Assembly (NCBI RefSeq): GCF_011045215.1
Contig: NZ_CP049201.1
DNA from: Escherichia coli
Lineage (GTDB): Bacteria; Pseudomonadota; Gammaproteobacteria; Enterobacterales; Enterobacteriaceae
DNA length: 64,000 nucleotides
Direction: 5' to 3' (one strand)
Shown here in pieces: positions 48,801-64,000 of the stretch (its first letter is position 1; every line of letters starts with the position of its first letter). A model generated the notes under the pieces. The model saw only the letters and a list, made by a program, of their open reading frames with translations. It was not told where the DNA came from and made no database searches. The position numbers were made by a program, and so were the translations under genes.

Positions 48801-49486
48801 TCCTTAGAATGAAAATGAGTTCGCGGGCATTCAAGGCCTACCAACTCATTGGCTATTTCTGGTTTTTCCGGGAGGATCAGCGCAATAAAAGGGCGGCGAA
48901 CTTTGGTTATTCCTGGTAGTGCGGCAATGAGTTTGTCGGCGCAACGCTGCCAGCAGCTTTCCTCTGCCAGAGAGAGGTGTTTACGCAGTCGGAGATCGAA
49001 TTCGTTATAGGTTTCTGAGCGATAACCATAGCCATAGTCCTCGTTCTGATACTGCAATGTGACTACCAGAGGATCACTCTCATAACACCGTGCAATAAAC
49101 TGGCGTGCAATCACCACCTCAGTCGCATATTCCAGCCCCTCTTGTTGGACGATTTCGTCGAGCAACTGTTGGCTGTCATTTTGCGCGATACAGGCTAGCG
49201 CCGCCATTGTCCGGGCCGGGATTGAGGGTTTGTGTTCGCCGATCAAGTTGATGGCCTGCGTGATGGCGGACTGCCACTCCAGTGAAAAATTTTCATAACG
49301 CCAGACAATGTTTTTTTTCTTCTCAGCTTTTTGTAGCAATTCATCACCCAGTGTCTGAATGATGCTTTCAGTGATAACAGGCACTGGTTCGCCCGGCCAA
49401 TTGCGATGGCTGAGTGGTGTTTTACCCTTTTTATATTTCAGTTCCAGTTGGGCGTTATCAGCCAGCCACGGTAATTCCTTGTCCAT
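45854..49486 (-). CDS. yehI: Giant DUF4132-family protein (MolR paralog lacking the N-terminal WGR segment)
   Basis: 1210 aa; C-terminal ~450 aa aligns by eye with the C-termini of the two upstream paralogs. Confidence 0.8.
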   Translation of the reverse strand: MDKELPWLADNAQLELKYKKGKTPLSHRNWPGEPVPVITESIIQTLGDELLQKAEKKKNIVWRYENFSLEWQSAITQAINLIGEHKPSIPARTMAALACIAQNDSQQLLDEIVQQEGLEYATEVVIARQFIARCYESDPLVVTLQYQNEDYGYGYRSETYNEFDLRLRKHLSLAEESCWQRCADKLIAALPGITKVRRPFIALILPEKPEIANELVGLECPRTHFHSKEWLKVVANDPTAVRKLEHYWSQDIFSDREASYMSHENHFGYAACAALLREQGLAAIPRLAMYAYKEDCGSLLVQINHPQVIRTLLLVADKNKPSLQRVAKYHKNFPHATLAALAELLALTEPPARPGYPIIEDKKLPAQQKARDEYWRTLLQTLMASQPQLAAEVMPWLSTQARAVLKSYLSALPKPVIDGTDNSNLPEILVSPPWRSKKKMTAPRLDLARLELTPQVYWQPGERERLAATEPARYFSTESLAERMEQKSGRVVLQELGFGDDVWLFLNYILPGKLDAARNSLIVEWHYYQGRVEEILNGWNSPEAPLAEQALRSGHVEALINIWENDNYSRYRPEKSVWNLYLLAQLPREIALTFWLRINEKKHLFAGEDYFLSILGLDALPGLLLAFSHRPKETFPLILNFGATELALPIARVWHRFAGQRNLARQWILHWPEHTATALIPLVFTKSSDKSEAALLALRLLYEHGHGELLQTLANRWQRTDLWPALEQLLKQSPIEIYPARIPKAPDFWHPQMWSRPRLITNNQTVTDDALEIFGEMLRFTQGGRFYSGLEQLKTFCQPQTLAAFAWDLFTAWQQAGAPAKDNWAFLALSLFGDESTARDLTTQILAWPQEGKSARAVSGLNILTLMNNDMALIQLHHISQRAKSRPLRDNAAEFLQVVAENRGLSQEELADRLVPTLGLDDPQALIFDFGPRQFTVRFDENLNPIIFDQQNVRQKSVPRLRADDDQLKAPEALAQLKGLKKDATQVSKNLLPRLETALRTTRRWSLADFHSLFVNHPFTRLVTQRLIWGVYPANEPRCLLNAFRVAAEGEFCNAQDEPIDLPADALIGIAHPLEMTVEMRSEFAQLFADYEIMPPFRQLSRRTVLLTPDESTSNSLTRWEGKSATVGQLMGMRYKGWESGYEDAFVYDLGEYRLVLKFSPGFNHYSADSKALMSFHSLRVYRNNKSVTFAELDVFDLSEALSAADVIFH

Positions 49487-49495
49487 GCTCTTTCC

Positions 49496-52400
49496 TTATT
49501 CAAACAGGGCTTCAATATCGTTAATTAGCTCGCTGGCGGTGATGGCATCGAGTACGGAGAACAGCGCTTCCTGTGTTGAATTACTCCCCCAGCCATAGCT
49601 TTCCGCTTTGCCTTCCCATAGCCACAGCTTGCTTAAGAGCTGCTCAGCGCTAAGTTCGGCTGGTGACATACCCACTGCAAAGCCTTCATCGATTTCCATG
49701 ATTAACGACCAGCGGCCCAGAGGTTTGATCATCCAGCCGATCCAGCCTCCATCCTGTGGTTCGCCCTTTATCCAGCCTTTATTCGCCAGCCCCATTACCC
49801 GACCGCTCGGGCATTTTCTGCCTGCCCAGCGGGTCAGTTCGCTGGCGTTGCGCTCGGCTTCTGTCAGGGCGTAACTGTTACGGTCAAGCTGGCGGAACGG
49901 TGGTAACAGTTCGTAGTCGGCAAAAAGCTGACCAAAGGCGGCAGCATCCGTCGGTGATATTTCCAGAACGTGAGGAATACCAATAGAGATATCGCCTTCC
50001 GGCAGGGTGAAAAGATCATCGTCAGCGGTGCTGTAGCTGTTATCTTCCGCTACGCGAAAGCAAGCCTGCAGCTGGTTTTCGGCGCTATAAACGCCCCAAA
50101 TCAGACGGCGGGTTAAGTGGCGAACCAGCGGATGCTCAACCAGGAAGAGCTGAAAGTTTTCCGGTGACCAGCGGCGACGCAGGCACATGGCGGATTCCAG
50201 CCTTGCTACCTGCTGGGCGGCGACGGTACGCGCATCTTTTTTCAGCAGTTTGTAGCGGTTAACAGCATCGTTCGCCTGTGATTCATCATCGCTTTTGTTT
50301 GGTTTGGGCAGGTCTTTCAGACGGCTGCCAGAAACATCACGCACAAACGGTTTTAAGGTTTCATCAAAGCTGACGGTGAACTGGCGTGAGCCGAAATCCA
50401 GCAGCAACGAACCGTTATCATCCAGACCGAGATCCGGTGCTAACCGATCTTCAAGCTCTGCCACCGTGAGTTCGCGGCTTTCGGCAATGTCGGCAATTTT
50501 TTCTTTTGCCCGCTCCTGTAATGCTTTGAATTTCAGTTTCTGGGCAATACCGTTAAGCTGCATCAGGGCGATATCACTACCGATAGCGGCGAGAATATCC
50601 AACCCAACGGTGGCGCGTTTATGCTGGGATTCACCAGGCCAGGCGCGTATTAATGGCGTCAGTTTGCGGGCGGTGTCATCGTTACCAAGAACGCCTAACG
50701 CAGTGAACGCCCAACTCTCTTTCGACGGTGCGCCCGCAGTCAGCCAGGCGGTAAACAGATCCCAGGCAAATTCAGCCAGTGAGTCGGCGGTACAGGCATC
50801 TTTCACCTGCAATAATCCCGGATACAGGGCCTCTTCCTGAGGGAAGCGGAGCATTTCACCGAGGTGCTGGAGTGCGCTATCTGGCAGTACCTTGCTGCTA
50901 TTTTTGAGTTTCGGGCGAGTCCATAATGGAGGTTGATAAAACAACGGTAAAGGGGGGATTTTCGCCGGGTATTTACCCACAGGACTGTTGTCGTTATTTT
51001 TATTTTGAGTTTCCCAGGGCGGCGAGACTAGTACCATTGGTAGAATTTCTGAGTTTGCAAAATCTTCATTGCGACTATTCAGCAATTGCTGACATTGTTG
51101 CAATAAATTTACCGCTTGCGACGATAATCCGATGACTAATTTTTCGACCAATAAAGGATTTGCATTAAGTAATGAAACCAGCAACGTATGTTTGCGTTTA
51201 TCATCTTTTTTTACCAATGCTTCGGCTAATGCCGCTATCGTGGCAGAAGGAAAATTTTCGGCACTTTTTATTAGTCGTTCATAACAGCGTTTATTAGTAT
51301 CGGCGGCTTCGATGAGTGCCGTAATGGCCAACGGATGATTAATACATTTCAGTACGTCACCGCAATTATCTTCTTCAGCATAGGGAGCCAGGCGAGCCAG
51401 TGCCGCTATACCTTGCTCCCGTAATACCGTAGCTGACCAACTGGCACCATAGGTGTTAAATACATCAATGTATTGATAGTTCTCCAGTATTTCGAGCGTG
51501 AATGGATCTGTCGCTACCAGTTTCAACATTTCAAGTTGTGGAACATCTGCGACCTGGTGTAAACGATGTACGATCTCATGGGCCACTTCGGGTATTTCTG
51601 GCATTAAAATGGCAATTAACGGTTGGCGATAGAGTGATATATCTGGTAACGCAACGAGTAATTTTGCAATGCAATTTTGCCATACTTCTTCTTCTGCTAG
51701 TGATAAATGTTTACGCAGACGTAAACTAAATTTGTCGTTATTCCTTCTATAACTGTCCTTGCTGCTATCTGCATAATTAATAAAGAAAGTCAAATGTTCA
51801 TCTTTATAGTCAAAATCGAAATCAATTTGCCACCAGAAGATGACAGTTTCAGTTGCGTATTCGATACCGAAGGTGCTTACAATTTCATCCAGCAACTCGG
51901 ATGAGGTTTCATCATTCCAGCCCTGACAAAAACATATTTCCAGAAAAGTAAGTACCGCCATAGTACGCGCGGGTATCTTAGTCTTTTGGGCCTTAATTAA
52001 GCTGATTGCCTGGCTAATCGCATCAGCCCATTCATCAGAGCATGAGCTGTAATCGAAAGTCAGATTTTTATAATAATGATAAGTACGATTTGCCAATCGG
52101 GAAATTAAATTTTGTTTCTCGGGTTTGGTTGGTTTTTTTACTGGCTCTCCCGGCCAAAGGCGGTGGCTGAGGGCATGGCGGGCAATATTCGGGGGAAGAA
52201 TAATGGGATCGTTGTCTGCCAGCCAGGGTAAACCATTAGTTGCTGCCTGGCGATTTATTGAGGCTTTTTCCTCTGTGACCAGGACTTTCTTTGCTGAGGC
52301 ATCATGTGAGTGAGCGTTAGCGTCTACTTGCTCCACATACCCCTTCTTCACCTTCTCCGCAATCAGCTTCAGTGCTGCTTTTTCCGCCGCCGCAGTATCT

Positions 52401-52528
52401 GCAAAGCTTTTTACCTGACTTTGCCCGTTGGTACCGACTTTACCCCAGTTAATATGCAGCTCGTTTCCCTGCTGCTCCACCGCCCAGAATTTATGTGATT
52501 TTTCGTCCTGATAAATATAGGTTTTCAT
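49496..52528 (-). CDS. WGR-domain / DUF4132 protein, middle MolR-family paralog
   Basis: 1010 aa; N-terminal 65 aa nearly identical to the upstream paralog; C-terminal half ~70% identical to it; central part AT-rich and divergent. Confidence 0.75.
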   Translation of the reverse strand: MKTYIYQDEKSHKFWAVEQQGNELHINWGKVGTNGQSQVKSFADTAAAEKAALKLIAEKVKKGYVEQVDANAHSHDASAKKVLVTEEKASINRQAATNGLPWLADNDPIILPPNIARHALSHRLWPGEPVKKPTKPEKQNLISRLANRTYHYYKNLTFDYSSCSDEWADAISQAISLIKAQKTKIPARTMAVLTFLEICFCQGWNDETSSELLDEIVSTFGIEYATETVIFWWQIDFDFDYKDEHLTFFINYADSSKDSYRRNNDKFSLRLRKHLSLAEEEVWQNCIAKLLVALPDISLYRQPLIAILMPEIPEVAHEIVHRLHQVADVPQLEMLKLVATDPFTLEILENYQYIDVFNTYGASWSATVLREQGIAALARLAPYAEEDNCGDVLKCINHPLAITALIEAADTNKRCYERLIKSAENFPSATIAALAEALVKKDDKRKHTLLVSLLNANPLLVEKLVIGLSSQAVNLLQQCQQLLNSRNEDFANSEILPMVLVSPPWETQNKNNDNSPVGKYPAKIPPLPLFYQPPLWTRPKLKNSSKVLPDSALQHLGEMLRFPQEEALYPGLLQVKDACTADSLAEFAWDLFTAWLTAGAPSKESWAFTALGVLGNDDTARKLTPLIRAWPGESQHKRATVGLDILAAIGSDIALMQLNGIAQKLKFKALQERAKEKIADIAESRELTVAELEDRLAPDLGLDDNGSLLLDFGSRQFTVSFDETLKPFVRDVSGSRLKDLPKPNKSDDESQANDAVNRYKLLKKDARTVAAQQVARLESAMCLRRRWSPENFQLFLVEHPLVRHLTRRLIWGVYSAENQLQACFRVAEDNSYSTADDDLFTLPEGDISIGIPHVLEISPTDAAAFGQLFADYELLPPFRQLDRNSYALTEAERNASELTRWAGRKCPSGRVMGLANKGWIKGEPQDGGWIGWMIKPLGRWSLIMEIDEGFAVGMSPAELSAEQLLSKLWLWEGKAESYGWGSNSTQEALFSVLDAITASELINDIEALFE

Positions 52529-52540
52529 TGTTAAATCCTT

Positions 52541-55500
52541 TTAATCAAACAGTGATTCAATGTCGTTAATCAGCTCGCTGGCGGTGATGTCGTCGAGCAT
52601 GGAGAAAGTGGGTGAGGATTGTTTACCATAGCGATCATAAGGGGCGGTGATTTTTACGCTTTCGACAGGCAGCAGGTCGCTATACCCCGTTTCGCCATAA
52701 ATTAATGAAAAAGGTTCCGTTTCAAGTTCGAGAGCACCATAAGGGGTAGATTTGCGCATCGCATAGACGCTGCCGCTTTCTTCCAGACGTTGCCAGCCTC
52801 GGCGTTCCAGCCCGACAATGCGTCCGGCCTGGCAGAGACGTCCGTTCCAGCGTGACAATTCATGGACATTACGTTCGTTATCAGCAAGGTGGTAACTACC
52901 ACGTTCGAACTGTTGGAAAGGGGGAAGCAGTTCGTAATCAACGTAAATTTGCCTGAATGCAGCGGCGGATTCAGGGGGGATTTCCAGCACATGCGGTATA
53001 CCGATGTTTCCTGCTGGCAGCGTGAATAACTCATCCTGCGCATCGCTGTAAGTGCTGTCTTCTGCCACGCGAAAACAGGTGATAAGAGCGTTTTCATCGT
53101 TATAACCCCCCCATAACAGCCGTCGGGTTAAGTGACGTACCAGCGGATGCTCCACCAGAAACAGGCGGAACTGCTCTGCCGTCCAGCGTCTGCGCTGGCA
53201 CATAGCCTGTTCCAGACGGGTAATTTGCTGGCTGGCGATAGCACGAACATCTTTTTTCAACTGTTTGAAGAGATTAACTGCGTCAGTTGCCAGTGTTTTA
53301 TCATCGCTCTGGTTTGGCTTAGGTAAATCTTTCAGGACTTTGCCGTTTGCATCGCACACTACAGGTTTTAAGGTTTCGTCAAAACCAACGGTGAATTTGC
53401 GGGGGCCGAAATCCAGTGTCAGCGAGCCACTGCTATCAAGCCCTAAATCTGGAGCCAGGCGGTCTTCCAGTTCAGCCATAGTCAGCCCACGGTTTTCAGC
53501 AACTATGTTGATTTTCTCGCGGGCATGTTCCTGTAATGCTTTGAATTTAATTTTTCGCGCGATGCCATTAAGCAGCATTAGCGCAACATCGCTGCCAATA
53601 TCAGCTAATACATCCAGCCCGGACACCGCCCGTTTATGCTGGGATTCCCCAGGCCAGGCGCGGATAAGCGGGGTTAATTTACGCGCGGTGTCGTCATTGC
53701 CTAAAATCCCAAGCGAAGTAAATGCCCAGTTTTCTTTTGCGGGTGCGCCAGCTTCTGTCCAGGCGGTATACAGATCCCAGCCAAATTCAGCCAGTGATTC
53801 GCGGGTGAAGATTTCTCTAATGATATCCAGCCCAGCGTAGGCGGTAATGTCGCGAGGAAAGCTCAGCATAGTGCCGAGGTGGCGCATAGCGTCATCTGAC
53901 AGAGGCAGGTTGTTACTTTTAAGCCGTGGTCTGCGCCACAAGGTGAACTGATAAAAGCCGGACAGTGGGGCGATTTTAGCGGGATATTCTTCCAGTGGGT
54001 CGCTATCGAACAATGTTGCCAGCGCAGCTAAAACATCAGGTTGGTTGTATCCCTGGGCGATTTCCTCAATCGTTTCTCGCTGGTTTAAATTCACCAGCAG
54101 ACGAAGCGCCTGGCGGGCACAATCACGATCTTTTCCCTGTTTGCCCAGGGCCACAGGAAGTAGCCCGGCGGCGGCATGGCGTGGGTAGTCAGTTAGCCAG
54201 TTTCGCGCATCTTCATAAGACATTTTTTTCTGTAGCTGTTGCGCCATCGGTAAGGCCAGTTCACTGACACCGAGGAAGAAGGTGAAGAAGCACAGGCGTC
54301 GTGGATTACGTTGCAGACAGGTCATAAATGCAGGTATGGCGGCGCTACCAAAAATTGCCAGAATATTTTCCTCACCAGAGTAGTTATCTTCTTTGACTAT
54401 CTGGTTAAGAAAAGAAATGGCCTGTTGACCAGGCAGGTAACAGAGGGCCATGAGATCCCAGCTTTTGTATGCATTGTTATGGTATTGCGCAAATTCAGCA
54501 TTGAGTGCTGGAAAATCGAAGCGTAGCAGGGCATCAACGGCGCTTTGTGGGGCCGGAATTTTTTCGTATATTTTCTCTCCGCTTTCCCGCCATTTTTCAA
54601 AACCAAGATGCCACAGTATTTGTTGCTCCGGTGTAAGCGGTATTAATTGTTTCTCCCAGCTTGCTTTTTTCATCGGCGGCAGGTCGGTAAACAATGTTTG
54701 TTTTGTCGCCTGCTGTTGGGCTATTTGCTGGAAGCGGGTGACAAGGTAAGTACGGGTTAGTCTTTTGGCAATCTCGGGAGTGACATCAGAAACAGAAGGA
54801 ACTGGAAGCACAGGAAGATCAAACACAGGCGTATTTTTCTTTTTCTCTTTGGTCATCCAGGGCGGCGAAACAAGCAGTTGTGGCAACATATCCGCAGTGG
54901 CGTATTCACACACTTCAGTCACAGGTTGCAGGCGACATTCAGATAAGATGCCAGCGGCTTTGGCATTCACCCAGGGAATGACGTCGCATACTAACTCTGG
55001 CGTGGCGGTAATCAGTTTGACAAGCGCTTTACGCCACTCTTTATCTTCATGTATTGCCAGCAAAGTAGCATAAGCCGCAATAGCCGCAGCGGGATGCTTT
55101 TGACTGGCCTTGCTTAAGTATTCCAGGTGCTTTTTCTTACCAATTACACCGAGGATCAGAATTTGAATCGCATCCGGGTGATTAGTTTTCCATAGCCATT
55201 TGACAAGATTTTCAGTCTCGCTGATGCGTTCGAAGAGATAAGTGGGATTGTCAGAATGGTCTTCCGTAAACTCAAGAAGTATCCGGCTTACACCGCGCAC
55301 CCCATTATTTGCCAACAACATTGCCAGATAAGCGCGAAAATTACGAAAATCACGATACAACGGTGGGAAGTCGTATTTTTCCACTGTACTCAGAGCAGTA
55401 TCATCGGTTATCACCAGTCTTAACCAGGCCATCGCCGGGACGTTTTGGTCTGCATAGCGTAGAGCTATAGCATGGGCGATATCCGGGCGTTCAGGGAGCA

Positions 55501-56350
55501 GTAACGCCGCAAAAGGTTGCCGTGCGGGGGATAGCGTCGGAATGGCGGTGAGTACTTTATCTACACAGCGTTGCCACTCATCTTCTGAAGCGAGTGAAAG
55601 ATGATGACATAGACGTTGATGCCAACTAGGTAGCGATTCTGCTTCGTGATTAGGTGGAATGATGGTGGTTACTGCGCCTTTTACTGGTTTATATTTGAGT
55701 TGAAGGGCAAAAAGGGCGATTTCAACGGCGCTTTCCAGACCACAGCGAATGACTAAGTCATCGACCAGTTCATCTGCAGAGTAAGAGTTCCAAAAACTCC
55801 AGAGCAATGCTGCATCAGATTGCGCACTCCCTGTCTGTTGATTATCCAGAATTCGCCTTTGTAACTCAGCAAAAGCCTGCTGCCAGTTTTCAGGATAAGA
55901 GCGGTAATTGTTGTCGGGATCATATGCCCTGGTGTTATCTGCAATACGCTTCCATATCTCACCGTCTTTGCGCAGATAATTGATCTCTCTGGGGCGAGAG
56001 CGATGAGGAAAAGCAAATCGGTTAATATCGTCAGTTACCGGAATAACTGCATCATCAGCCAGCCACGGGCGTTGGTTTTTACTCTCAGGGGAAGATTCAA
56101 CTTCAGGAGTGGCTTTGGTGATGGGGGAGATATGCACGTTTGCTGAAGCATTTTCCACATAGCCTTTTTTCGTTTTCTCTGCGATCAGCTTAAGCTCCGC
56201 TTTTGCCGCTGCCGCAGCATCTGCAAAACTTTTTATCTGGCTTTGCCCTTTGGTGCCAACTTTTCCCCAACTGATATGCAACTCGTTTCCCTGTTGCTCC
56301 ACCGCCCAGAATTTATGTGATTTTTCGTCCTGATAGATAAAGTGTCTCAT
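52541..56350 (-). CDS. molR: WGR-domain / DUF4132 protein, intact MolR-like
   Basis: 1269 aa uninterrupted ORF starting MRHFIYQDEKSHKFWAVEQQGNELHISWGKVGT... (WGR-like); lies between metG and yehI, where K-12 carries a molR pseudogene as I recall. Confidence 0.75.
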   Translation of the reverse strand: MRHFIYQDEKSHKFWAVEQQGNELHISWGKVGTKGQSQIKSFADAAAAAKAELKLIAEKTKKGYVENASANVHISPITKATPEVESSPESKNQRPWLADDAVIPVTDDINRFAFPHRSRPREINYLRKDGEIWKRIADNTRAYDPDNNYRSYPENWQQAFAELQRRILDNQQTGSAQSDAALLWSFWNSYSADELVDDLVIRCGLESAVEIALFALQLKYKPVKGAVTTIIPPNHEAESLPSWHQRLCHHLSLASEDEWQRCVDKVLTAIPTLSPARQPFAALLLPERPDIAHAIALRYADQNVPAMAWLRLVITDDTALSTVEKYDFPPLYRDFRNFRAYLAMLLANNGVRGVSRILLEFTEDHSDNPTYLFERISETENLVKWLWKTNHPDAIQILILGVIGKKKHLEYLSKASQKHPAAAIAAYATLLAIHEDKEWRKALVKLITATPELVCDVIPWVNAKAAGILSECRLQPVTEVCEYATADMLPQLLVSPPWMTKEKKKNTPVFDLPVLPVPSVSDVTPEIAKRLTRTYLVTRFQQIAQQQATKQTLFTDLPPMKKASWEKQLIPLTPEQQILWHLGFEKWRESGEKIYEKIPAPQSAVDALLRFDFPALNAEFAQYHNNAYKSWDLMALCYLPGQQAISFLNQIVKEDNYSGEENILAIFGSAAIPAFMTCLQRNPRRLCFFTFFLGVSELALPMAQQLQKKMSYEDARNWLTDYPRHAAAGLLPVALGKQGKDRDCARQALRLLVNLNQRETIEEIAQGYNQPDVLAALATLFDSDPLEEYPAKIAPLSGFYQFTLWRRPRLKSNNLPLSDDAMRHLGTMLSFPRDITAYAGLDIIREIFTRESLAEFGWDLYTAWTEAGAPAKENWAFTSLGILGNDDTARKLTPLIRAWPGESQHKRAVSGLDVLADIGSDVALMLLNGIARKIKFKALQEHAREKINIVAENRGLTMAELEDRLAPDLGLDSSGSLTLDFGPRKFTVGFDETLKPVVCDANGKVLKDLPKPNQSDDKTLATDAVNLFKQLKKDVRAIASQQITRLEQAMCQRRRWTAEQFRLFLVEHPLVRHLTRRLLWGGYNDENALITCFRVAEDSTYSDAQDELFTLPAGNIGIPHVLEIPPESAAAFRQIYVDYELLPPFQQFERGSYHLADNERNVHELSRWNGRLCQAGRIVGLERRGWQRLEESGSVYAMRKSTPYGALELETEPFSLIYGETGYSDLLPVESVKITAPYDRYGKQSSPTFSMLDDITASELINDIESLFD

Positions 56351-56490
56351 TCTGCATCCCTGTAATTTTATCCAGTTAAATGCAGATGCTACCAGTATTT
56401 ATGCGGGTTAGAGAGAGACAAAATCGCAAGAAAACAACTTTAGGAATTTATAAAGAAAAGGCGCTGTCGATGCAGCGCCTTGAAGGGGGA

Positions 56491-58524
56491 TTATTTCACC
56501 TGATGACCCGGTTTAGCACCAGCATCCGGGCTTAGCAGGAAAATATCTTTCCCGCCAGGACCGGCAGCCATCACCATGCCTTCAGAGATACCGAAGCGCA
56601 TTTTACGTGGTGCCAGGTTAGCCACCATAATGGTGTGACGACCAATCAGTGCCTGCGGATCCGGGTAAGCAGAACGAATGCCGGAGAAGACATTACGCTT
56701 TTCGCCGCCGAGATCCAGCGTCAGGCGTAGCAGTTTGTCAGAACCTTCAACAAACTCTGCGTTTTCAATCAGCGCCACGCGCAGGTCAACTTTGGCGAAG
56801 TCGTCAAAGGTGATGGTTTCCTGAATCGGATCATCTGCCAGTGGGCCAGTAACTGGCGCGGCAGCTGCTTTCACTTCTTCTTTAGACGCTTCCACCAGTG
56901 CTTCAACCTGCTTCATATCGATGCGGTTATATAGCGCCTTGAACGGATTCACTTTGTGGCCCAGCAGCGGTTGCTGGATACCATCCCAGGTCAGTTCCGT
57001 ATTGAGGAATGCTTCTGCACGCTCGGTCAGTTTCGGCAGTACCGGCTTCAGGTAAGTCATCAGCACGCGGAACAGGTTTATGCCCATCGAGCAAATTGCC
57101 TGCAGGTCAGCATCGCGGCCTTCCTGTTTCGCTACCACCCACGGAGCCTGTTCATCGACATAGCGGTTAGCCAGATCAGCCAGCGCCATAATTTCGCGCA
57201 CTGCTTTACCAAATTCGCGGCTTTCCCACGCTTCACCAATCACTTCAGCGGCATCAGTGAAGGTTTTGTACAACTGCGGGTCAGCCAGTTCGCTTGCCAG
57301 CACACCGTCAAAACGCTTGTTGATAAAGCCCGCATTACGAGAGGCCAGGTTAACCACTTTATTAACGATATCGGCATTCACGCGCTGAACGAAATCTTCC
57401 AGGTTGAGATCGATATCATCAATGCGCGAAGAGAGTTTCGCAGTGTAGTAGTAACGCAGGCTGTCGGCGTCAAAATGATTCAGCCAGGTGCTGGCTTTAA
57501 TAAAGGTACCGCGAGACTTGGACATTTTCGCGCCGTTCACCGTCACATAGCCGTGAACAAACAGGTTGGTCGGCTTGCGGAAGTTGCTACCTTCCAGCAT
57601 TGCTGGCCAGAACAGGCTGTGGAAGTAAACGATATCTTTACCGATGAAGTGGTACAGCTCGGCGGTGGAGTCTTTCTTCCAGTATTCATCGAAGCTTACG
57701 CTATCGCCGCGCTTGTCGCACAGATTCTTGAAAGAACCCATATAGCCAATCGGTGCGTCCAACCAGACGTAGAAATATTTGCCCGGCGCGTTCGGAATTT
57801 CAAAACCGAAATAAGGGGCATCGCGGGAGATATCCCACTGTTGCAGGCCAGATTCAAACCACTCCTGCATTTTATTTGCCACCTGCTCCTGCAACGCACC
57901 GCTGCGGGTCCATGCCTGCAGCATTTCGCTGAAAGAGGGCAGATCAAAGAAGAAGTGTTCAGAATCACGCATTACCGGGGTGGCGCCAGAAACCACCGAT
58001 TTCGGCTCGATCAGTTCAGTCGGGCTGTAGGTCGCACCGCAGACTTCGCAGTTATCGCCGTATTGATCCGGGGATTTACATTTCGGGCAGGTGCCTTTCA
58101 CAAAACGGTCCGGCAGGAACATGCCTTTTTCCGGATCGTACAGCTGAGAGATGGTGCGGTTTTTAATAAAACCGTTTTCTTTCAGGCGAGAGTAGATAAG
58201 TTCTGACAACTGGCGGTTCTCTTCGCTGTGCGTCGAGTGATAGTTGTCATAGCTGATGTTAAAGCCTGCGAAATCAGTCTGATGCTCCTGACTCATTTCG
58301 CCAATCATCTGCTCCGGGGTGATACCAAGCTGCTGAGCTTTCAGCATGATCGGTGTACCGTGGGCATCGTCGGCGCAGATGAAGTTGACCTCGTGGCCGC
58401 GCATTCGCTGGTAACGGACCCAGACATCAGCCTGGATGTGCTCCAGCATATGGCCGAGGTGGATTGAGCCGTTAGCGTACGGCAGTGCGCACGTCACCAG
58501 AATTTTCTTCGCGACTTGAGTCAT
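56491..58524 (-). CDS. metG: Methionyl-tRNA synthetase
   Basis: Class I HIGH motif ([11 protein letters not shown]), KMSKS motif, zinc knuckle CPKCK...CEVCG, C-terminal tRNA-binding domain; 677 aa from internal start MTQVAKK.... Confidence 0.9.
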
Positions 58525-58655
58525 AGTAGGCATTACTTCTTAATAGTGAAAAGGGGTTAGATAGTACCAAATGGGAAAATGTTAAGTAAGTACTTCTCTA
58601 TATTCTTCAGGTAAACTATCAGCTGATGGTTTATCTATACAAAAAAGGAGTCGGG

Positions 58656-59765
58656 ATGAACGAACAATCCCAGGCCAAATCACCAGAAGCCTTGCGCGCA
58701 ATGGTCGCCGGGACACTGGCCAATTTTCAGCACCCAACCCTGAAGCATAACCTCACCACGCTGAAAGCGTTGCACCATGTCGCCTGGATGGACGACACGT
58801 TGCATGTGGAACTGGTTATGCCATTCGTCTGGCATAGCGCGTTTGAAGAGTTAAAAGAGCAATGTAGCGCCGAACTGCTGCGTATCACCGGGGCGAAAGC
58901 TATCGACTGGAAACTGTCGCACAATATCGCCACCTTAAAACGCGTGAAGAATCAGCCGGGTATTAATGGCGTGAAGAACATCATTGCGGTCAGTTCCGGT
59001 AAAGGCGGCGTGGGTAAATCCTCCACGGCGGTAAACCTGGCGTTGGCACTGGCGGCGGAAGGGGCGAAAGTCGGCATTCTGGACGCCGATATCTACGGTC
59101 CATCAATTCCCACCATGCTGGGCGCAGAAAATCAGCGTCCAACTTCGCCGGACGGTACCCATATGGCACCGATTATGTCTCATGGCCTGGCAACCAATTC
59201 AATTGGTTATCTGGTCACTGACGACAATGCGATGGTGTGGCGTGGACCGATGGCGAGCAAGGCGTTAATGCAGATGTTGCAGGAAACCTTGTGGCCGGAT
59301 CTCGACTATCTGGTGCTTGATATGCCGCCAGGCACCGGTGACATTCAATTGACGCTGGCGCAAAACATTCCAGTAACTGGTGCAGTCGTGGTCACCACCC
59401 CGCAGGACATCGCGTTGATCGATGCGAAAAAAGGCATTGTGATGTTCGAGAAAGTCGAGGTTCCGGTGCTCGGTATTGTCGAGAACATGAGTGTGCATAT
59501 TTGCAGTAACTGTGGTCACCATGAACCGATTTTCGGTACCGGTGGTGCAGAGAAACTGGCTGAAAAATACCATACACAGCTGCTGGGGCAGATGCCGTTA
59601 CACATCTCCTTACGTGAGGATCTCGATAAAGGCACGCCAACGGTTATCAGCCGTCCGGAGAGCGAATTTACCGCTATCTACCGCCAGCTGGCTGACCGCG
59701 TTGCAGCTCAGCTCTACTGGCAGGGTGAAGTCATTCCAGGCGAGATTTCCTTCCGCGCGGTCTAA
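58656..59765 (+). CDS. apbC: Fe-S cluster carrier ATPase (Mrp/NBP35 family)
   Basis: Deviant Walker A SGKGGVGKSST and CxxC motif (CSNCGH); 369 aa from internal start MNEQSQ.... Confidence 0.85.
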   Translation: MNEQSQAKSPEALRAMVAGTLANFQHPTLKHNLTTLKALHHVAWMDDTLHVELVMPFVWHSAFEELKEQCSAELLRITGAKAIDWKLSHNIATLKRVKNQPGINGVKNIIAVSSGKGGVGKSSTAVNLALALAAEGAKVGILDADIYGPSIPTMLGAENQRPTSPDGTHMAPIMSHGLATNSIGYLVTDDNAMVWRGPMASKALMQMLQETLWPDLDYLVLDMPPGTGDIQLTLAQNIPVTGAVVVTTPQDIALIDAKKGIVMFEKVEVPVLGIVENMSVHICSNCGHHEPIFGTGGAEKLAEKYHTQLLGQMPLHISLREDLDKGTPTVISRPESEFTAIYRQLADRVAAQLYWQGEVIPGEISFRAV

Positions 59766-60026
59766 CGCCTATTAACCATTCTGGTTATTCTTCATACACC
59801 GCAGAGATGTTATATTGATGCGGTGTATTTGTTTTTGCCGCATTAATGAACACTTATTTAATACTGCGAATATTCAGTGGATCTTAGTCCGAAACTGTAC
59901 AAAGTCGATTGATCGTACAGGCAATGCTTCATTATCATCCTTCGTGCTGTGTAGTGGATGTACAGCTATAGTTTGTTATGCACTCATTCTATCCAGGCAT
60001 AACCTTTACTACAGGGATAACGTTCA

Positions 60027-60308
60027 ATGAATAAGTATTGGCTGTCAGGAATTATTTTTCTTGCCTATGGATTGGCTTCTCCCGCGTTCTCTTCAGAGAC
60101 TGCAACATTAACGATTAATGGCAGGATCAGTCCCCCAACATGCAGTATGGCTATGGTTAATAGTCAACCTCAACAGCATTGTGGTCAGTTAACGTATAAT
60201 GTCGATACCCGTCATCAGGTTTCTTCGCCCGTCAAAGGTGTAACGACAGAAGTGGTTGTTGCAGGTAGTGATAGCAAACGTCGAATCGTGTTAAATCGCT
60301 ACGATTAA
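60027..60308 (+). CDS. yehE: Small secreted protein (DUF2574), upstream of the yeh fimbrial genes
   Basis: 93 aa with signal peptide. Confidence 0.6.
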   Translation: MNKYWLSGIIFLAYGLASPAFSSETATLTINGRISPPTCSMAMVNSQPQQHCGQLTYNVDTRHQVSSPVKGVTTEVVVAGSDSKRRIVLNRYD

Positions 60309-60340
60309 TTTGGCAACCTGATTTTAATTGCATTTAGAAA

Positions 60341-60378
60341 GCCGAAATCATTTATATAAATGATTTCGGCTTTTTTTA
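60341..60378 (+). terminator. Rho-independent terminator after yehE
   Basis: Hairpin gccgaaatcatttatataaatgatttcggc followed by TTTTTTT. Confidence 0.7.
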
Positions 60379-60379
60379 T

Positions 60380-60600
60380 TGATATCAACAATACCATTTA
60401 CATAAATCTACATTAATTAATAGATGCGATAAATATTTAATACTCTTAAGTATTTGTTGTATTTATATTGCAATGGTTAATTTGTTTTAAATCAATAAAA
60501 CAATATGTTTACATTGCGGCAACTTTTTTGATGTGAGAAATTTGTTTCCAAGAGATACAGACTCTTAACAACCAAAAATAAATTTTATTAAGGAACATAT
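60380..60600. promoter_or_regulatory. AT-rich curved-DNA-like promoter region of the yeh fimbrial operon (likely H-NS target)
   Basis: Roughly 80% A+T with phased A/T tracts directly upstream of yehD. Confidence 0.4.
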
Positions 60601-60601
60601 T

Positions 60602-61144
60602 ATGAAACGTTCAATTATTGCTGTCGCTGTCTTTTCTTCTTTTTTTATGAGCGCTGGAGTATTTGCTGCAGACGTTGATACCGGAACATTAACTATTAAA
60701 GGGAATATTGCAGAATCTCCGTGTAAATTCGAAGCGGGTGGTGATTCAGTAAGTATTAATATGCCGACTGTACCAACCACTGTCTTTGAAGGTAAAGCTA
60801 AATATTCTACCTATGATGATGCAGTCGGTGTAACCAGCAGCATGTTAAAAATTAGCTGCCCGAAAGAAGTTGCTGGTGTAAAACTCTCGTTGATTACCAA
60901 CGATAAAATAACTGGTAACGATAAGGCGATAGCCAGTAGCAACGATACTGTGGGTTACTATCTCTATTTAGGTGATAACAGCGATGTCCTGGATGTTTCT
61001 GCACCTTTTAATATTGAGAGTTATAAAACAGCGGAAGGTCAATATGCTATTCCGTTTAAAGCAAAATACCTGAAACTGACAGATAACTCAGTGCAATCAG
61101 GTGATGTATTATCTTCTCTGGTTATGCGTGTGGCGCAGGATTAA
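60602..61144 (+). CDS. yehD: Fimbrial major subunit (pilin)
   Basis: 180 aa with signal peptide and Cys pair typical of chaperone-usher pilins. Confidence 0.75.
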   Translation: MKRSIIAVAVFSSFFMSAGVFAADVDTGTLTIKGNIAESPCKFEAGGDSVSINMPTVPTTVFEGKAKYSTYDDAVGVTSSMLKISCPKEVAGVKLSLITNDKITGNDKAIASSNDTVGYYLYLGDNSDVLDVSAPFNIESYKTAEGQYAIPFKAKYLKLTDNSVQSGDVLSSLVMRVAQD

Positions 61145-61224
61145 TAAATAAAATTGCAAGTTTCTCCAGGTAATAAACATGGCCGCTATCCCCATGGCGG
61201 CTTTTTAATTTAAGAGGCATTAAG

Positions 61225-61899
61225 ATGAAAGGATTATTATCTTTACTCATTTTTTCTATGGTCCTTCCTGCACATGCCGGAATTGTTATCTACGGGACGC
61301 GCATTATTTACCCGGCAGAAAATAAAGAAGTTATGGTGCAGTTGATGAACCAGGGAAACCGTTCTTCGCTGCTGCAGGCGTGGATTGATGATGGCGATAC
61401 GTCGTTACCACCAGAAAAAATTCAGGTTCCTTTCATGTTAACGCCACCAGTGGCAAAAATAGGGGCAAATTCCGGCCAGCAAGTAAAAATCAAAATTATG
61501 CCGAATAAACTGCCCACTAATAAAGAAAGCATTTTTTATCTGAATGTTCTGGATATTCCACCAAATAGTCCAGAACAAGAAGGTAAGAATGCACTGAAGT
61601 TTGCGATGCAAAACAGAATCAAATTGTTTTACCGGCCGGCGGGTATTGCTCCGGTAAATAAAGCGACCTTTAAAAAGTTACTGGTAAATCGCAGTGGCAA
61701 TGGATTGGTGATAAAAAATGACTCAGCTAATTGGGTGACGATTTCGGATGTCAAAGCTAATAATGTTAAAGTCAATTATGAAACTATTATGATTGCCCCC
61801 TTAGAAAGTCAGAGTGTTAATGTCAAAAGTAATAATGCAAATAACTGGTATCTGACCATTATCGATGACCACGGCAACTATATTAGTGACAAAATTTAA
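61225..61899 (+). CDS. yehC: Periplasmic fimbrial chaperone (PapD-like)
   Basis: Signal peptide then GTRIIYP.. motif characteristic of PapD-family chaperones. Confidence 0.75.
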   Translation: MKGLLSLLIFSMVLPAHAGIVIYGTRIIYPAENKEVMVQLMNQGNRSSLLQAWIDDGDTSLPPEKIQVPFMLTPPVAKIGANSGQQVKIKIMPNKLPTNKESIFYLNVLDIPPNSPEQEGKNALKFAMQNRIKLFYRPAGIAPVNKATFKKLLVNRSGNGLVIKNDSANWVTISDVKANNVKVNYETIMIAPLESQSVNVKSNNANNWYLTIIDDHGNYISDKI

Positions 61900-61914
61900 T
61901 TGCAGGAGCTGCCT

Positions 61915-64000
61915 ATGTTGAGAATGACCCCACTTGCATCAGCAATCGTAGCGTTATTGCTCGGCATTGAAGCTTATGCAGCTGAAGAAACCTTTGATAC
62001 CCATTTTATGATAGGTGGAATGAAAGACCAGCAGGTTGCAAATATTCGTCTTGATGATAATCAACCCTTACCGGGGCAGTATGACATCGATATTTATGTC
62101 AATAAGCAATGGCGCGGGAAATATGAGATTATTGTTAAAGACAACCCGCAAGAAACATGTTTATCAAGAGAAGTTATCAAGCGGTTAGGCATTAATAGCG
62201 ATAACTTCGCCAGCGGTAAGCAATGTTTAACATTTGAGCAACTTGTTCAGGGTGGGAGCTATACCTGGGATATCGGGGTTTTTCGTCTCGATTTCAGTGT
62301 CCCGCAGGCCTGGGTGGAAGAACTGGAAAGTGGCTATGTTCCACCGGAAAACTGGGAGCGGGGTATTAATGCGTTTTATACCTCTTATTATGTGAGTCAG
62401 TATTACAGTGACTATAAAGCGTCGGGTAATAGTAAGAGTACATATGTACGTTTTAACAGCGGGTTAAATTTACTGGGGTGGCAACTGCATTCTGATGCCA
62501 GTTTCAGTAAAACAAATAACAATCCAGGGGTGTGGAAAAGCAATACCCTGTATCTGGAACGTGGATTTGCCCAACTTCTCGGCACGCTTCGCGTGGGTGA
62601 TATGTACACATCAAGCGATATTTTTGATTCTGTTCGCTTCAGAGGTGTGCGGTTGTTTCGTGATATGCAGATGTTGCCTAACTCGAAACAAAATTTTACG
62701 CCACGGGTGCAGGGGATTGCTCAGAGTAACGCGCTGGTAACTATTGAACAGAATGGTTTTGTGGTTTATCAGAAAGAGGTTCCTCCTGGCCCGTTTGCAA
62801 TTACAGATTTGCAGTTGGCCGGTGGTGGAGCAGATCTTGATGTCAGCGTGAAAGAGGCGGACGGTTCGGTAACCACCTATCTGGTGCCTTATGCAGCCGT
62901 GCCAAATATGCTGCAACCCGGCGTGTCGAAATATGATTTTGCGGCGGGTCGTAGCCATATTGAAGGGGCGAGCAAACAAAGTGATTTTGTCCAGGCGGGT
63001 TATCAGTATGGTTTTAATAACTTATTGACGCTGTATGGTGGCTCGATGGTCGCGAATAATTATTACGCGTTCACTTTGGGGACTGGCTGGAATACACGCA
63101 TTGGTGCCATTTCCGTCGATGCCACGAAGTCGCATAGTAAACAAGACAACGGCGATGTGTTTGACGGGCAAAGTTATCAAATTGCCTACAACAAATTTGT
63201 GAGCCAAACGTCGACGCGTTTTGGTCTGGCGGCCTGGCGTTATTCGTCGCGTGACTACCGGACATTTAACGATCACGTTTGGGCAAACAATAAAGATAAT
63301 TATCGCCGTGATGAAAACGATGTCTATGACATTGCCGATTATTACCAGAATGATTTTGGTCGCAAAAATAGCTTTTCCGCCAATATGAGCCAGTCATTGC
63401 CAGAAGGTTGGGGTTCTGTGTCATTAAGTACGTTATGGCGAGATTACTGGGGGCGTAGCGGCAGTAGTAAGGATTATCAGTTGAGTTATTCCAACAACCT
63501 GCGACGGATAAGCTATACCCTCGCGGCAAGCCAGGCTTATGACGAGAATCATCATGAAGAGAAACGTTTTAATATTTTTATATCGATTCCCTTTGATTGG
63601 GGTGATGACGTTTCGACGCCTCGTCGGCAAATATATATGTCTAACTCAACGACGTTTGATGATCAGGGGTTTGCCTCAAATAATACGGGATTATCAGGAA
63701 CAGTAGGGAGTCGGGATCAGTTCAATTATGGTGTCAACCTGAGTCATCAACATCAGGGAAATGAAACGACAGCTGGAGCGAATTTAAACTGGAACGCGCC
63801 GGTGGCAACAGTGAATGGCAGTTATAGTCAGTCGAGTACTTATCGACAGGCTGGAGCCAGTGTTTCAGGGGGCATTGTCGCCTGGTCGGGTGGCGTTAAT
63901 CTGGCGAACCGTCTTTCCGAAACGTTTGCTGTGATGAATGCGCCAGGAATTAAAGATGCTTATGTCAATGGGCAAAAATATCGCACAACAAACCGTAATG
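61915..64000 (+). CDS. yehB: Fimbrial outer-membrane usher (PapC/FimD family), 3' end lies outside the window
   Basis: ATG at 61915 opens a frame that runs uninterrupted to the window end (no stop, hence absent from the ORF track); usher-like signal peptide and beta-rich composition. Confidence 0.75.
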   Translation, partial: MLRMTPLASAIVALLLGIEAYAAEETFDTHFMIGGMKDQQVANIRLDDNQPLPGQYDIDIYVNKQWRGKYEIIVKDNPQETCLSREVIKRLGINSDNFASGKQCLTFEQLVQGGSYTWDIGVFRLDFSVPQAWVEELESGYVPPENWERGINAFYTSYYVSQYYSDYKASGNSKSTYVRFNSGLNLLGWQLHSDASFSKTNNNPGVWKSNTLYLERGFAQLLGTLRVGDMYTSSDIFDSVRFRGVRLFRDMQMLPNSKQNFTPRVQGIAQSNALVTIEQNGFVVYQKEVPPGPFAITDLQLAGGGADLDVSVKEADGSVTTYLVPYAAVPNMLQPGVSKYDFAAGRSHIEGASKQSDFVQAGYQYGFNNLLTLYGGSMVANNYYAFTLGTGWNTRIGAISVDATKSHSKQDNGDVFDGQSYQIAYNKFVSQTSTRFGLAAWRYSSRDYRTFNDHVWANNKDNYRRDENDVYDIADYYQNDFGRKNSFSANMSQSLPEGWGSVSLSTLWRDYWGRSGSSKDYQLSYSNNLRRISYTLAASQAYDENHHEEKRFNIFISIPFDWGDDVSTPRRQIYMSNSTTFDDQGFASNNTGLSGTVGSRDQFNYGVNLSHQHQGNETTAGANLNWNAPVATVNGSYSQSSTYRQAGASVSGGIVAWSGGVNLANRLSETFAVMNAPGIKDAYVNGQKYRTTNRN

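What the first reader, a model, noticed from the sequence alone, without database searches (positions are those of the whole stretch)
59770..64000. AT-rich yeh chaperone-usher fimbrial locus adjacent to housekeeping genes
The GC content drops sharply after apbC. The region encodes yehE, a pilin, a chaperone and an usher, with a strong terminator between yehE and yehD and an AT-rich curved promoter region typical of H-NS-silenced cryptic fimbriae.
Basis: partly seen in the sequence, partly recalled or inferred. Interest (0 to 1): 0.3.

Follow-up and report, generated by a model that had tools for sequence, protein, structure and literature searches.

The report
Known AT-rich yeh fimbrial operon

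Summary
GC falls from 0.513 (1-59769) to 0.415 (59770-64000), starting at the apbC stop codon. The lowest 500-bp stretch of the whole window (0.30) covers the yehE-yehD spacer. The genes are yehE (DUF2574), yehD (major pilin), yehC (chaperone) and yehB (usher, cut by the window end). An 18-bp hairpin with a T7 tail follows yehE, and its stem is kept by compensatory changes across genera. The region is 98.3% identical to E. coli K-12, and 5423 of 5426 complete E. coli genomes hold it. Published K-12 data place H-NS on the yehD/yehE spacer. They describe yehDCBA as cryptic and H-NS-repressed, and raised by SlyA or BolA overproduction. The tip adhesin's structure and pectin binding were published in 2026. 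Only the word "curved" fails: a wedge model predicts the promoter region to be straighter than average. The locus is old, sitting between apbC and rcnB in several genera, with no tRNA gene or flanking repeats. Side results: the "Yeh-like" (Yhl) pilus is a deeply diverged allele of this same locus (dS 0.7-1.1 against 0.008 in apbC), and YehE is a tiny family whose N-terminus resembles the pilin's. Verdict: already known, low interest.

The parts
58656..59765 (+). apbC (mrp), the housekeeping gene that bounds the AT-rich region on the left
   Evidence: Pfam ParA/NUBPL, E 4e-102. Annotated apbC in K-12 and in the closest genome. GC 0.538, GC3 0.619.
59794..59840 (+). hairpin (59794-59828) plus T-rich tail; probably the apbC terminator
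   Evidence: Fold of 59766-59850: -21.7 kcal/mol, z = -2.9. Inverted repeat I3. Identical in all four E. coli haplotypes aligned.
59909..59938 (+). candidate sigma-70 promoter of yehE (TTGATC-18-TATCAT)
   Evidence: Consensus scan, 9 of 12 matches. Both hexamers are nearly kept in the diverged haplotype L002. It is a consensus match only.
60027..60308 (+). yehE, a 93-aa secreted protein of family DUF2574; function unknown
   Evidence: PF10836, E 4e-52. dN/dS 0.26 between E. coli haplotypes. Next to Yeh-type operons in every sampled lineage with enough flank except two, which hold it alone.
60336..60377 (+). intrinsic-terminator-like hairpin after yehE (18-bp stem, 4-nt loop, T7 run)
   Evidence: -24.7 kcal/mol, z = -6.9. 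Covariation: 87.6% of cells paired, 8 of 13 pairs with changes on both sides, 0-2 of 500 shuffles reach the observed values, slid controls 31-55% paired.
60378..60601 (+). AT-rich yehD control region (GC about 0.23), matching the H-NS-bound K-12 'promoter island' yehD/yehE
   Evidence: for composition. PMC3661553 Table 1. No sigma-70 consensus match on the + strand. Predicted straight, not curved.
60452..60572 (+). conserved non-coding block upstream of yehD; the core kept across genera is 60477-60532 and includes TTAAATCAATAA (60487-60498) and TACATTG (60510-60516)
   Evidence: Nearly identical between E. coli haplotypes that differ by 15-28% elsewhere. Invariant columns across 7 loci. Also recognisable in L006, where yehE points the other way.
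60602..61144 (+). yehD, the major pilin (called yehA in the UTI89/Hultgren naming)
   Evidence: PF00419 above its cut-off. Annotated yehD. GC3 0.30.
61181..61202 (+). GC-rich 9-bp hairpin between the pilin and chaperone genes
   Evidence: -13.3 kcal/mol. A strong hairpin sits at this position in all 8 loci examined, with unrelated sequences and usually no U tract. The stem is kept in the diverged E. coli haplotype while the T tract is lost.
61225..61899 (+). yehC, the periplasmic chaperone
   Evidence: PapD_N E 4e-41 and PapD_C E 2e-8. Best NCBIfam match is StcB.
61915..64000 (+). yehB, the outer-membrane usher: first 695 of 826 codons, cut by the window end
   Evidence: Open reading frame to the window end. 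PapC_N and Usher domains. NF011763, 1469 bits against a cut-off of 933. Full length is 826 aa in the closest genome.

Best explanation
What it is. The region is the first 4.2 kb of the roughly 5.7-kb yehE-yehDCBA locus of E. coli. This is the gamma-4 chaperone-usher 'Yeh' pilus, called Stc in Salmonella.

Assembly (from established knowledge of chaperone-usher pili, not tested here). YehD pilins are folded by the chaperone YehC. The usher YehB polymerises them beneath the tip adhesin YehA, which lies just beyond the window and has been published to bind pectin.

Silencing (composition shown here; H-NS binding published for K-12 and inferred for this strain). The locus is AT-rich: GC 0.415, and 0.23 in the yehD control region. 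H-NS therefore binds the yehE-yehD spacer and keeps yehDCBA almost silent in laboratory culture. Overproduction of SlyA or BolA raises the transcript, and SlyA is proposed to act by antagonising H-NS.

Transcript structure (structure shown, activity inferred).
- yehE is a separate transcription unit. Its conserved hairpin and T-run ends transcription coming from apbC and yehE before the yehD promoter.
- A second hairpin after yehD, conserved in position, probably sets a high pilin-to-machinery mRNA ratio, as in the pap and fim operons.

Origin. The low GC is an old, inherited property of a locus shared by several enterobacterial genera. It does not mark a recent insertion.
For: Identity of the locus.
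- 98.3% identical to K-12 and 99.8% to strain PapM-32-1, with yehE, yehD, yehC and yehB annotated under the match. 5423 of 5426 complete E. coli genomes hold it.
- The domains fit.
- In the closest genome the adhesin's receptor-binding domain matches PDB 9N4G (YehD RBD) at 172 of 173 residues.

Composition.

H-NS and cryptic status.
- PMC3661553 Table 1 lists yehD/yehE as an H-NS-bound promoter island.
- PMC5797941 Table 2 and text.
- PMC3559732.
- BolA induction, PMC4337573.

yehE as a separate unit.
- The hairpin is strong and covaries.
- yehE is transcribed divergently from the operon in L006 and has its own terminator-like hairpin there.
- The literature writes the operon as yehDCBA.

The locus is maintained by selection.
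- dN/dS is 0.045-0.26 for all four genes.
- A non-coding block upstream of yehD is conserved.

The locus is old.
- The order metG-apbC-yehE-pilin-chaperone-usher-adhesin-rcnB recurs in L013, L015 and L017.
- There is no tRNA gene and no flanking repeat.
- Wurpel et al. report the same locus in Salmonella and Citrobacter.
Against: - All H-NS and expression data come from K-12, not from this strain.
- No sigma-70 consensus promoter is found on the + strand upstream of yehD.
- Matches to the H-NS high-affinity motif are only mildly enriched: 10 in 4.2 kb against 76 in 59.8 kb.
- Intrinsic curvature is not predicted.
- 'Cryptic' is conditional. PMC12778044 reports yeh up-regulation in the gut of IBD patients and a role in mouse gut colonisation.
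- The yehE hairpin has an AT-rich stem (5 G-C pairs of 18), and its terminator activity is untested.
- The hairpin after yehD is not better than shuffles in the window sequence itself (z = -1.3).
Confidence: 0.92

Rival explanations
1. The low-GC stretch is a recently acquired mobile genomic island inserted next to apbC.
For: Composition and third-codon-position GC are clearly atypical. IslandViewer and GIST flag the K-12 region as an island (PMC3661553, PMC5797941). Sequence identity to a second E. coli haplotype collapses exactly at the apbC boundary.
Against: The locus is present in 5423 of 5426 E. coli genomes. The same gene order between apbC and rcnB recurs in loci whose YehE is only 36-54% identical. 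There is no tRNA gene, integrase or flanking direct repeat. The literature calls it core-associated and ancestral to Escherichia and Salmonella.
Confidence: 0.04
2. The cluster is a decaying remnant: 'cryptic' because it is dead, with AT-richness and silence reflecting loss of function.
For: It is not expressed in laboratory culture. Some strains have lost it: an IS1-linked deletion in NCTC9967, and truncated YehE proteins in several lineages. No consensus promoter was found.
Against: All reading frames in the window are intact. dN/dS is 0.045-0.26 at dS of about 0.7-1.1. The regulatory block and both hairpins are conserved across genera. Published work shows functional pili when expressed, a pectin-binding adhesin and a gut-colonisation phenotype.
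Confidence: 0.03
3. yehE is the first gene of one yehEDCBA operon, and the hairpin is an attenuator or mRNA-stability element rather than a terminator.
For: The genes share orientation and are tightly linked in most lineages. The stem is AT-rich, so termination may be partial. YehE's N-terminus resembles the pilin's.
Against: The hairpin plus T-run is kept with covariation. A 220-bp AT-rich spacer with its own conserved block lies between the hairpin and yehD. yehE is divergently oriented in L006 and stands alone in L010-L012 and L018. K-12 transcript data are reported for yehDCBA.
Confidence: 0.1

Closest known systems
Yeh pilus operon of E. coli K-12 (yehE, yehDCBA) and of UTI89 (there named yehABCD in transcription order)
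   Same: Same locus, gene order and flanks. 98.3% DNA identity to K-12. In the closest genome the adhesin's receptor-binding domain matches PDB 9N4G at 172 of 173 residues.
   Different: Only strain-level substitutions. Beware that the two naming schemes run in opposite directions: K-12 yehD is the major pilin, whereas UTI89 'YehD' is the adhesin.
Salmonella Stc fimbriae (stcABCD)
   Same: Orthologous gamma-4 four-gene operon at the same chromosomal position, according to PMC3559732 and PMC12778044. The chaperone's best NCBIfam match is StcB.
   Different: A different genus. No Salmonella sequence was examined here, and the chaperone scores below the StcB cut-off (341.7 bits against 500).
Yhl ('Yeh-like') pilus of phylogroup-E E. 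coli (O157:H7 Sakai)
   Same: Same four-gene design plus a yehE homologue. In the genomes examined it occupies the same apbC-rcnB slot.
   Different: dS is 0.7-1.1 from the window's genes. The adhesin receptor-binding domains cannot be aligned by sequence. The window carries the Yeh form, not the Yhl form.
Other cryptic, H-NS-silenced chaperone-usher operons of K-12 (elf/ycb, sfm, yad)
   Same: AT-rich, H-NS-associated, silent in culture, and raised by SlyA overproduction.
   Different: Different usher clades and loci. SlyA binding was shown by gel shift for elf but was not tested for yeh.
Stem-loops downstream of the major-subunit gene in the pap and fim operons (from general knowledge)
   Same: A stable hairpin directly after the pilin gene, present in all 8 Yeh-type loci examined.
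   Different: Its effect on yeh mRNA has not been measured. Most copies lack a U tract.

Membership tests
Classical chaperone-usher pilus operon (gamma-4, Yeh/Stc type) | Periplasmic chaperone with PapD_N and PapD_C domains | tested here: met
   YehC: PF00345 E 4e-41 and PF02753 E 2e-8.
Classical chaperone-usher pilus operon (gamma-4, Yeh/Stc type) | Outer-membrane usher (PapC_N, Usher, PapC_C) | tested here: met
   PapC_N and Usher domains are present, and NF011763 scores 1469 bits. PapC_C lies beyond the window end, but the gene is full length (826 aa) in the 99.8%-identical genome.
Classical chaperone-usher pilus operon (gamma-4, Yeh/Stc type) | Major subunit of the Fimbrial family | tested here: met
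   YehD: PF00419, 31.2 bits against a cut-off of 25.6.
Classical chaperone-usher pilus operon (gamma-4, Yeh/Stc type) | Two-domain tip adhesin as the last gene | not testable with these tools
   It lies outside the window. In the closest genome a 344-aa YehA is present, and its receptor-binding domain matches PDB 9N4G.
Classical chaperone-usher pilus operon (gamma-4, Yeh/Stc type) | Usher falls in the gamma-4 clade | not tested
   No tree was built. The assignment is taken from PMC12778044 and PMC3559732.
H-NS-silenced AT-rich locus | AT content well above the genome average | tested here: met
   GC 0.415 against 0.513. The spacer has GC 0.239, the lowest in the 64-kb window.
H-NS-silenced AT-rich locus | H-NS occupancy in vivo | not testable with these tools
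   Published for K-12 only: PMC3661553 Table 1 and PMC5797941 Table 2.
H-NS-silenced AT-rich locus | Derepression without H-NS or with an H-NS antagonist | not testable with these tools
   Published: 3.6-fold rise on SlyA overproduction, and H-NS repression cited from Korea et al..
   Wedge-model end-to-end ratio is 0.97-0.99 for 60310-60610, at the 55th-97th percentile of the window. The model gave 0.25 for phased A-tracts.
Intrinsic (Rho-independent) terminator, yehE hairpin | Stable stem-loop directly followed by a U tract | tested here: met
   18-bp stem, T7 run, -24.7 kcal/mol, z = -6.9. The stem is AT-rich (5 G-C pairs).
Intrinsic (Rho-independent) terminator, yehE hairpin | Structure conserved by compensatory change | tested here: met
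   8 of 13 pairs changed on both sides. The covariation score of 0.516 was reached by 0 of 500 shuffles.
Intrinsic (Rho-independent) terminator, yehE hairpin | Transcripts end there | not testable with these tools
   Needs 3'-end mapping or an in vitro termination assay.
Mobile genomic island | tRNA or integrase gene, or flanking direct repeats | tested here: not met
   No tRNA gene in 50000-64000. No flanking repeats around the full locus in L005. No integrase gene is annotated.
DUF2574 / YehE family | Full-length match to PF10836 | tested here: met
   E 4e-52 over residues 1-93 of 93.
Fimbrial subunit (PF00419), considered for YehE | Match to the pilin domain | tested here: not met
   None of 19 family members hits PF00419, even at E <= 10. 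Profile-profile similarity to the YehD-type pilin covers only residues 1-42. The model has no fold match.

The most novel reading that the evidence does not exclude
YehE (DUF2574) may be a pilin-derived 'mini-subunit' handled by the chaperone, rather than a bystander. It could cap, terminate or tune Yeh pilus assembly. That would be a PapH-like role in an operon that otherwise has no terminator subunit.

What fits this reading:
- It has a signal peptide.
- Its N-terminal strand (TATLTINGRISPPTC) aligns with that of the neighbouring pilin (hhalign probability 95%).
- It has a conserved cysteine pair.
- Its C-terminus (R-x-IVLNRYD) ends in Tyr-Asp with alternating hydrophobic residues, like the adhesin's pilin domain (…ALINVKYD).
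- It stays beside Yeh-type operons across genera, even when its orientation differs.
- It is under purifying selection (dN/dS 0.26).

What does not fit: it has no PF00419 match, no fold match, and it occurs alone in two lineages.
Probability: 0.12. Interest if true: 0.45.

Novelty: already known. Interest (0 to 1): 0.1.

Why it matters
For a genome scan it matters little. The locus is textbook: a core-associated, H-NS-silenced chaperone-usher operon whose regulation, distribution and adhesin structure are published. The finding is a correct call of a known feature and serves as a positive control for 'AT-rich means silenced surface-structure genes'.

The small added value lies in four details gathered here:
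- Covariation supports the terminator that insulates yehE.
- The yehD control block is conserved across genera and offers a defined target for finding the natural activator.
- Yeh and Yhl are alleles of one locus, with mosaic recombinants.
- YehE shares its N-terminal strand, and possibly its C-terminal end, with Yeh subunits.

Tried and rejected
- Rfam scan of 58000-64000 at relaxed threshold: only chance-level microRNA/snoRNA matches to the palindrome, far below gathering scores.
- Curvature: my own Bolshoy-Trifonov wedge-model script, with parameters recalled from memory and checked on phased A-tracts. It shows no curvature upstream of yehD. The only moderately curved stretch lies at the start of the yehD coding sequence (60580-60730, 4th-7th percentile).
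- H-NS motif TCGATAAATT with up to 2 mismatches: weak enrichment, not diagnostic.
- Sigma-70 scan: no site on the + strand upstream of yehD, and the total count equals chance, so the promoter could not be placed. The TTA-N6-TAA match to SlyA-type sites at 60487-60498 is a lead only; yeh was not among the regions tested by gel shift.
- RNA fold of the yehD leader region (60455-60604): not better than shuffles (z = -1.0).
- YehE structure: AlphaFold2 gave pLDDT 47 with 12 sequences and 65 with 19. Foldseek against the PDB gave nothing below E = 0.75.
- YehE by sequence against the PDB: nothing credible.
- Large proteins that matched the YehE profile are repetitive cadherin/Ig-like adhesins sharing a generic beta-strand motif, so they were rejected as relatives.
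- Inverted repeat I2 (60371-60388 / 60486-60503): not conserved across genera, treated as chance in AT-rich DNA.
- One literature search on 'yehE' alone was swamped by unrelated uses of the word. Korea et al. 2010 is not held in the library, so it is cited only through papers that quote it.

Full report
**Observation**

A composition profile shows GC of 0.53-0.55 in apbC. It falls to 0.42 at 59750-60249, reaches 0.31 at 60250-60749, and stays at 0.37-0.49 to the window end. Over the whole window, GC is 0.513 for 1-59769 and 0.415 for 59770-64000. The lowest 500-bp stretch of all 64 kb is 60301-60800 (0.30). That is about 5.5 sd below the mean of 500-bp windows upstream of the region (0.513, sd 0.039). 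Third-codon-position GC is 0.36 in yehE, 0.30 in yehD, 0.40 in yehC and 0.44 in yehB, against 0.62 in apbC and 0.61 in metG. The yehE-yehD spacer has GC 0.239.

**Gene content**

The reading frames and their domains are these:
- yehE, 60027-60308: 93 aa, DUF2574, E 4e-52.
- yehD, 60602-61144: Fimbrial family.
- yehC, 61225-61899: PapD_N and PapD_C.
- yehB, from 61915: open for 695 codons to the window end, with PapC_N and Usher domains; NF011763 scores 1469 bits.

My first translation of the usher was one base out of frame, and I corrected it.

Megablast against 5426 complete E. coli genomes finds the region in 5423 of them, with yehE, yehD, yehC and yehB annotated under the match. Identity is 99.8% to strain PapM-32-1 and 98.3% to K-12. 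Upstream lie apbC and metG. Downstream in those genomes lie yehA (the adhesin) and then rcnB. In K-12 the low-GC stretch runs from the apbC stop codon to about the end of yehA, roughly 5.7 kb. The window therefore holds its first 4.2 kb.

**Terminator and other RNA features**

The hairpin after yehE (stem 60336-60375, 18 pairs, followed by T7) folds at -24.7 kcal/mol. Its z-score is -6.9, and none of 200 shuffles folds as well. I then aligned the yehE-to-pilin spacers of seven loci: two E. coli haplotypes and five more distant enterobacterial loci. These were found through YehE homologues and their contigs. A hairpin plus T-rich tail is present in every one.
- 87.6% of cells are paired.
- 8 of 13 pairs show changes on both sides.
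- 0 to 2 of 500 shuffles reach the observed values.
- Slid controls pair at only 31-55%.

The structure is therefore under selection; actual termination is inferred.

A second, GC-rich hairpin lies between yehD and yehC (61181-61202). In the window alone it is unremarkable (z = -1.3). A strong hairpin nevertheless occupies the same position in all eight loci examined, with unrelated sequences and mostly without a U tract. This fits the well-known arrangement in pilus operons, where a stem-loop after the major-subunit gene raises pilin mRNA relative to the genes for the assembly machinery. That comparison rests on general knowledge of pap and fim and was not tested here.

A hairpin with a T-rich tail right after apbC (59794-59840) is probably the apbC terminator. 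Rfam finds nothing real.

**Promoter region**

No sigma-70 consensus match lies on the + strand upstream of yehD, and promoter-like matches in the region are at chance level.

The spacer nevertheless contains the best-conserved non-coding sequence of the locus. Positions 60452-60572 are nearly identical between E. coli haplotypes that differ by 15-28% elsewhere. A core at 60477-60532 has columns invariant across genera, including TTAAATCAA and (T/C)ACATTG. It is recognisable even where yehE points the other way.

TTAAATCAATAA has the TTA-N6-TAA outline of the SlyA sites proposed in PMC5797941. That paper did not test yeh by gel shift, so this is only a lead.

The 'curved' claim fails. A wedge-model calculation bends a phased A-tract control strongly (end-to-end ratio 0.25). 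It gives 0.97-0.99 for 120-bp segments across 60310-60610, which is straighter than the window median. Matches to the H-NS high-affinity motif are only mildly enriched.

**What is known**

- PMC3661553 lists the K-12 yehD/yehE spacer among 78 'promoter islands'. It is bound by H-NS in the Kahramanoglou and Oshima data sets and flagged as foreign by four of the five prediction methods listed.
- PMC5797941 lists yehDCBA as a cryptic chaperone-usher operon that is H-NS-associated and raised 3.6-fold by SlyA overproduction. It cites Korea et al. for H-NS repression and for function when the operon is expressed artificially.
- BolA overproduction induces yehD and yehC.
- PMC3559732 classes Yeh as core-associated, intact in 92% of strains, and at the same locus as Salmonella stc and in Citrobacter.
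- PMC12778044 (2026) solved the adhesin's receptor-binding domain, showed pectin binding and reported a role in gut colonisation.
- The adhesin of the genome closest to the window matches that structure (9N4G) at 172 of 173 residues.
- The two gene-naming schemes run in opposite directions. K-12 yehD is the pilin, whereas UTI89 'YehD' is the adhesin.

**Age and origin**

The order metG-apbC-yehE-pilin-chaperone-usher-adhesin-rcnB recurs in loci whose YehE is only 36-54% identical to the window's. No tRNA gene, integrase gene or flanking repeat is present. The low GC is therefore an old, maintained feature and not a recent insertion.

**Side finding: Yeh and Yhl are alleles of one locus**

- About 6% of complete E. 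coli genomes match the region at only 80-90% identity.
- In one of them (L002), identity to the window is about 100% through apbC. It drops to 72-89% shortly after the apbC stop codon (about 59850-59900) and stays low through yehB.
- Synonymous divergence (dS) is 0.72-1.09 in the yeh genes, against 0.008 in apbC and 0.096 in metG. dN/dS is 0.045-0.26.
- L002's adhesin receptor-binding domain is identical over 171 residues to PDB 8V9V, the YhlD domain of O157:H7 Sakai.
- The published 'Yeh-like' pilus therefore occupies the same apbC-rcnB slot.
- Mosaics exist. L003 switches haplotype inside yehC. L020 combines Yeh-type 5' genes with a Yhl-type adhesin.
- The two adhesins share 44% identity, and only in the C-terminal pilin domain.

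**Side finding: YehE**

- The family is tiny: 32 clusters among 1.84 billion representative proteins, nearly all 87-94 aa.
- It has a signal peptide, a conserved TATLTINGR-x3-PTC strand, a cysteine pair, a GVTTE motif and an R-x-IVLNRYD end.
- Profile-profile comparison aligns residues 1-42 with the start of the neighbouring pilin at 95% probability, and nothing more.
- No member matches the Fimbrial family.
- The structure model is only moderate (pLDDT 65) and has no fold match.
- The C-terminus resembles that of the adhesin's pilin domain.
- In two lineages the gene stands alone, without a pilus operon.
- A role as a mini-subunit in pilus assembly is possible but unproven.

**Verdict**

The feature is already known and deserves low interest.

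Noticed in passing
window 59770-64000 compared with L002 (NZ_AP026090.1), L003 and L020: The published 'Yeh-like' (Yhl) pilus is a deeply diverged allele of this same apbC-rcnB locus. dS is 0.7-1.1 in the yeh genes against 0.008 in apbC, and the divergence starts shortly after the apbC stop codon. L002's adhesin receptor-binding domain is identical to PDB 8V9V (YhlD). Mosaic recombinants exist: L003 has a breakpoint near 61577 in yehC, and L020 combines Yeh-type 5' genes with a Yhl-type adhesin. The Yhl-type adhesin DNA occurs in 658 of 5426 complete genomes.
   Followed up: partly
window 60027-60308 (yehE); loci L006-L018: YehE (DUF2574) is a very small family of 87-94-aa proteins. Its first 42 residues align with the neighbouring pilin (hhalign 95%), and its end (…IVLNRYD) resembles the adhesin's C-terminus (…INVKYD). 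It is linked to Yeh-type operons in most lineages, divergently oriented in L006, and stands alone in L010-L012 and L018.
   Followed up: partly
window 60452-60572: This non-coding block upstream of yehD is almost identical between haplotypes that differ by 15-28% around it. Its core (60477-60532) is kept across genera and includes TTAAATCAATAA, which has the TTA-N6-TAA outline of proposed SlyA sites. No binding protein is known for it.
   Followed up: partly
window 61181-61202 and the same position in L002, L006, L009, L013, L015-L017: A stable GC-rich hairpin sits between the pilin and chaperone genes in all eight loci. The sequences are unrelated and most have no U tract, so it is a conserved position rather than a conserved sequence.
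   Followed up: partly
L004 (NZ_LS483303.1, strain NCTC9967): An IS1 element sits 98 bp after apbC. Everything from yehE to the first part of yehA is missing, which is one of the rare losses of the locus.
   Followed up: no
window 45854-56350: Three large DUF4132 genes lie in tandem on the minus strand: yehI, a 1010-aa paralogue, and a 1269-aa gene at 52541-56350 that starts with a WGR-like N-terminus. The last one is intact here but is a frameshifted pseudogene in K-12 and carries an internal stop in L002. The uncharacterised yehLMPQ cluster (AAA-type ATPase, DUF5682, VWA, SWIM) lies next to them. The third-lowest GC patch of the window (51651-52150, GC 0.38) falls in the middle paralogue.
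   Followed up: no
window 62000-64000 (yehB): GC skew is strongly positive (0.13-0.21) on the coding strand of the usher gene. The highest predicted curvature peak of the whole window lies at about 63171, inside yehB. No function is suggested.
   Followed up: no
window 60602-61144 (yehD): The E. coli YehD pilin scores below the cut-off of the NCBIfam model named 'fimbrial protein YehD' (109.8 bits against 136). The chaperone also scores below its equivalog cut-offs, which suggests those models fit other alleles or genera better than this one.
   Followed up: no
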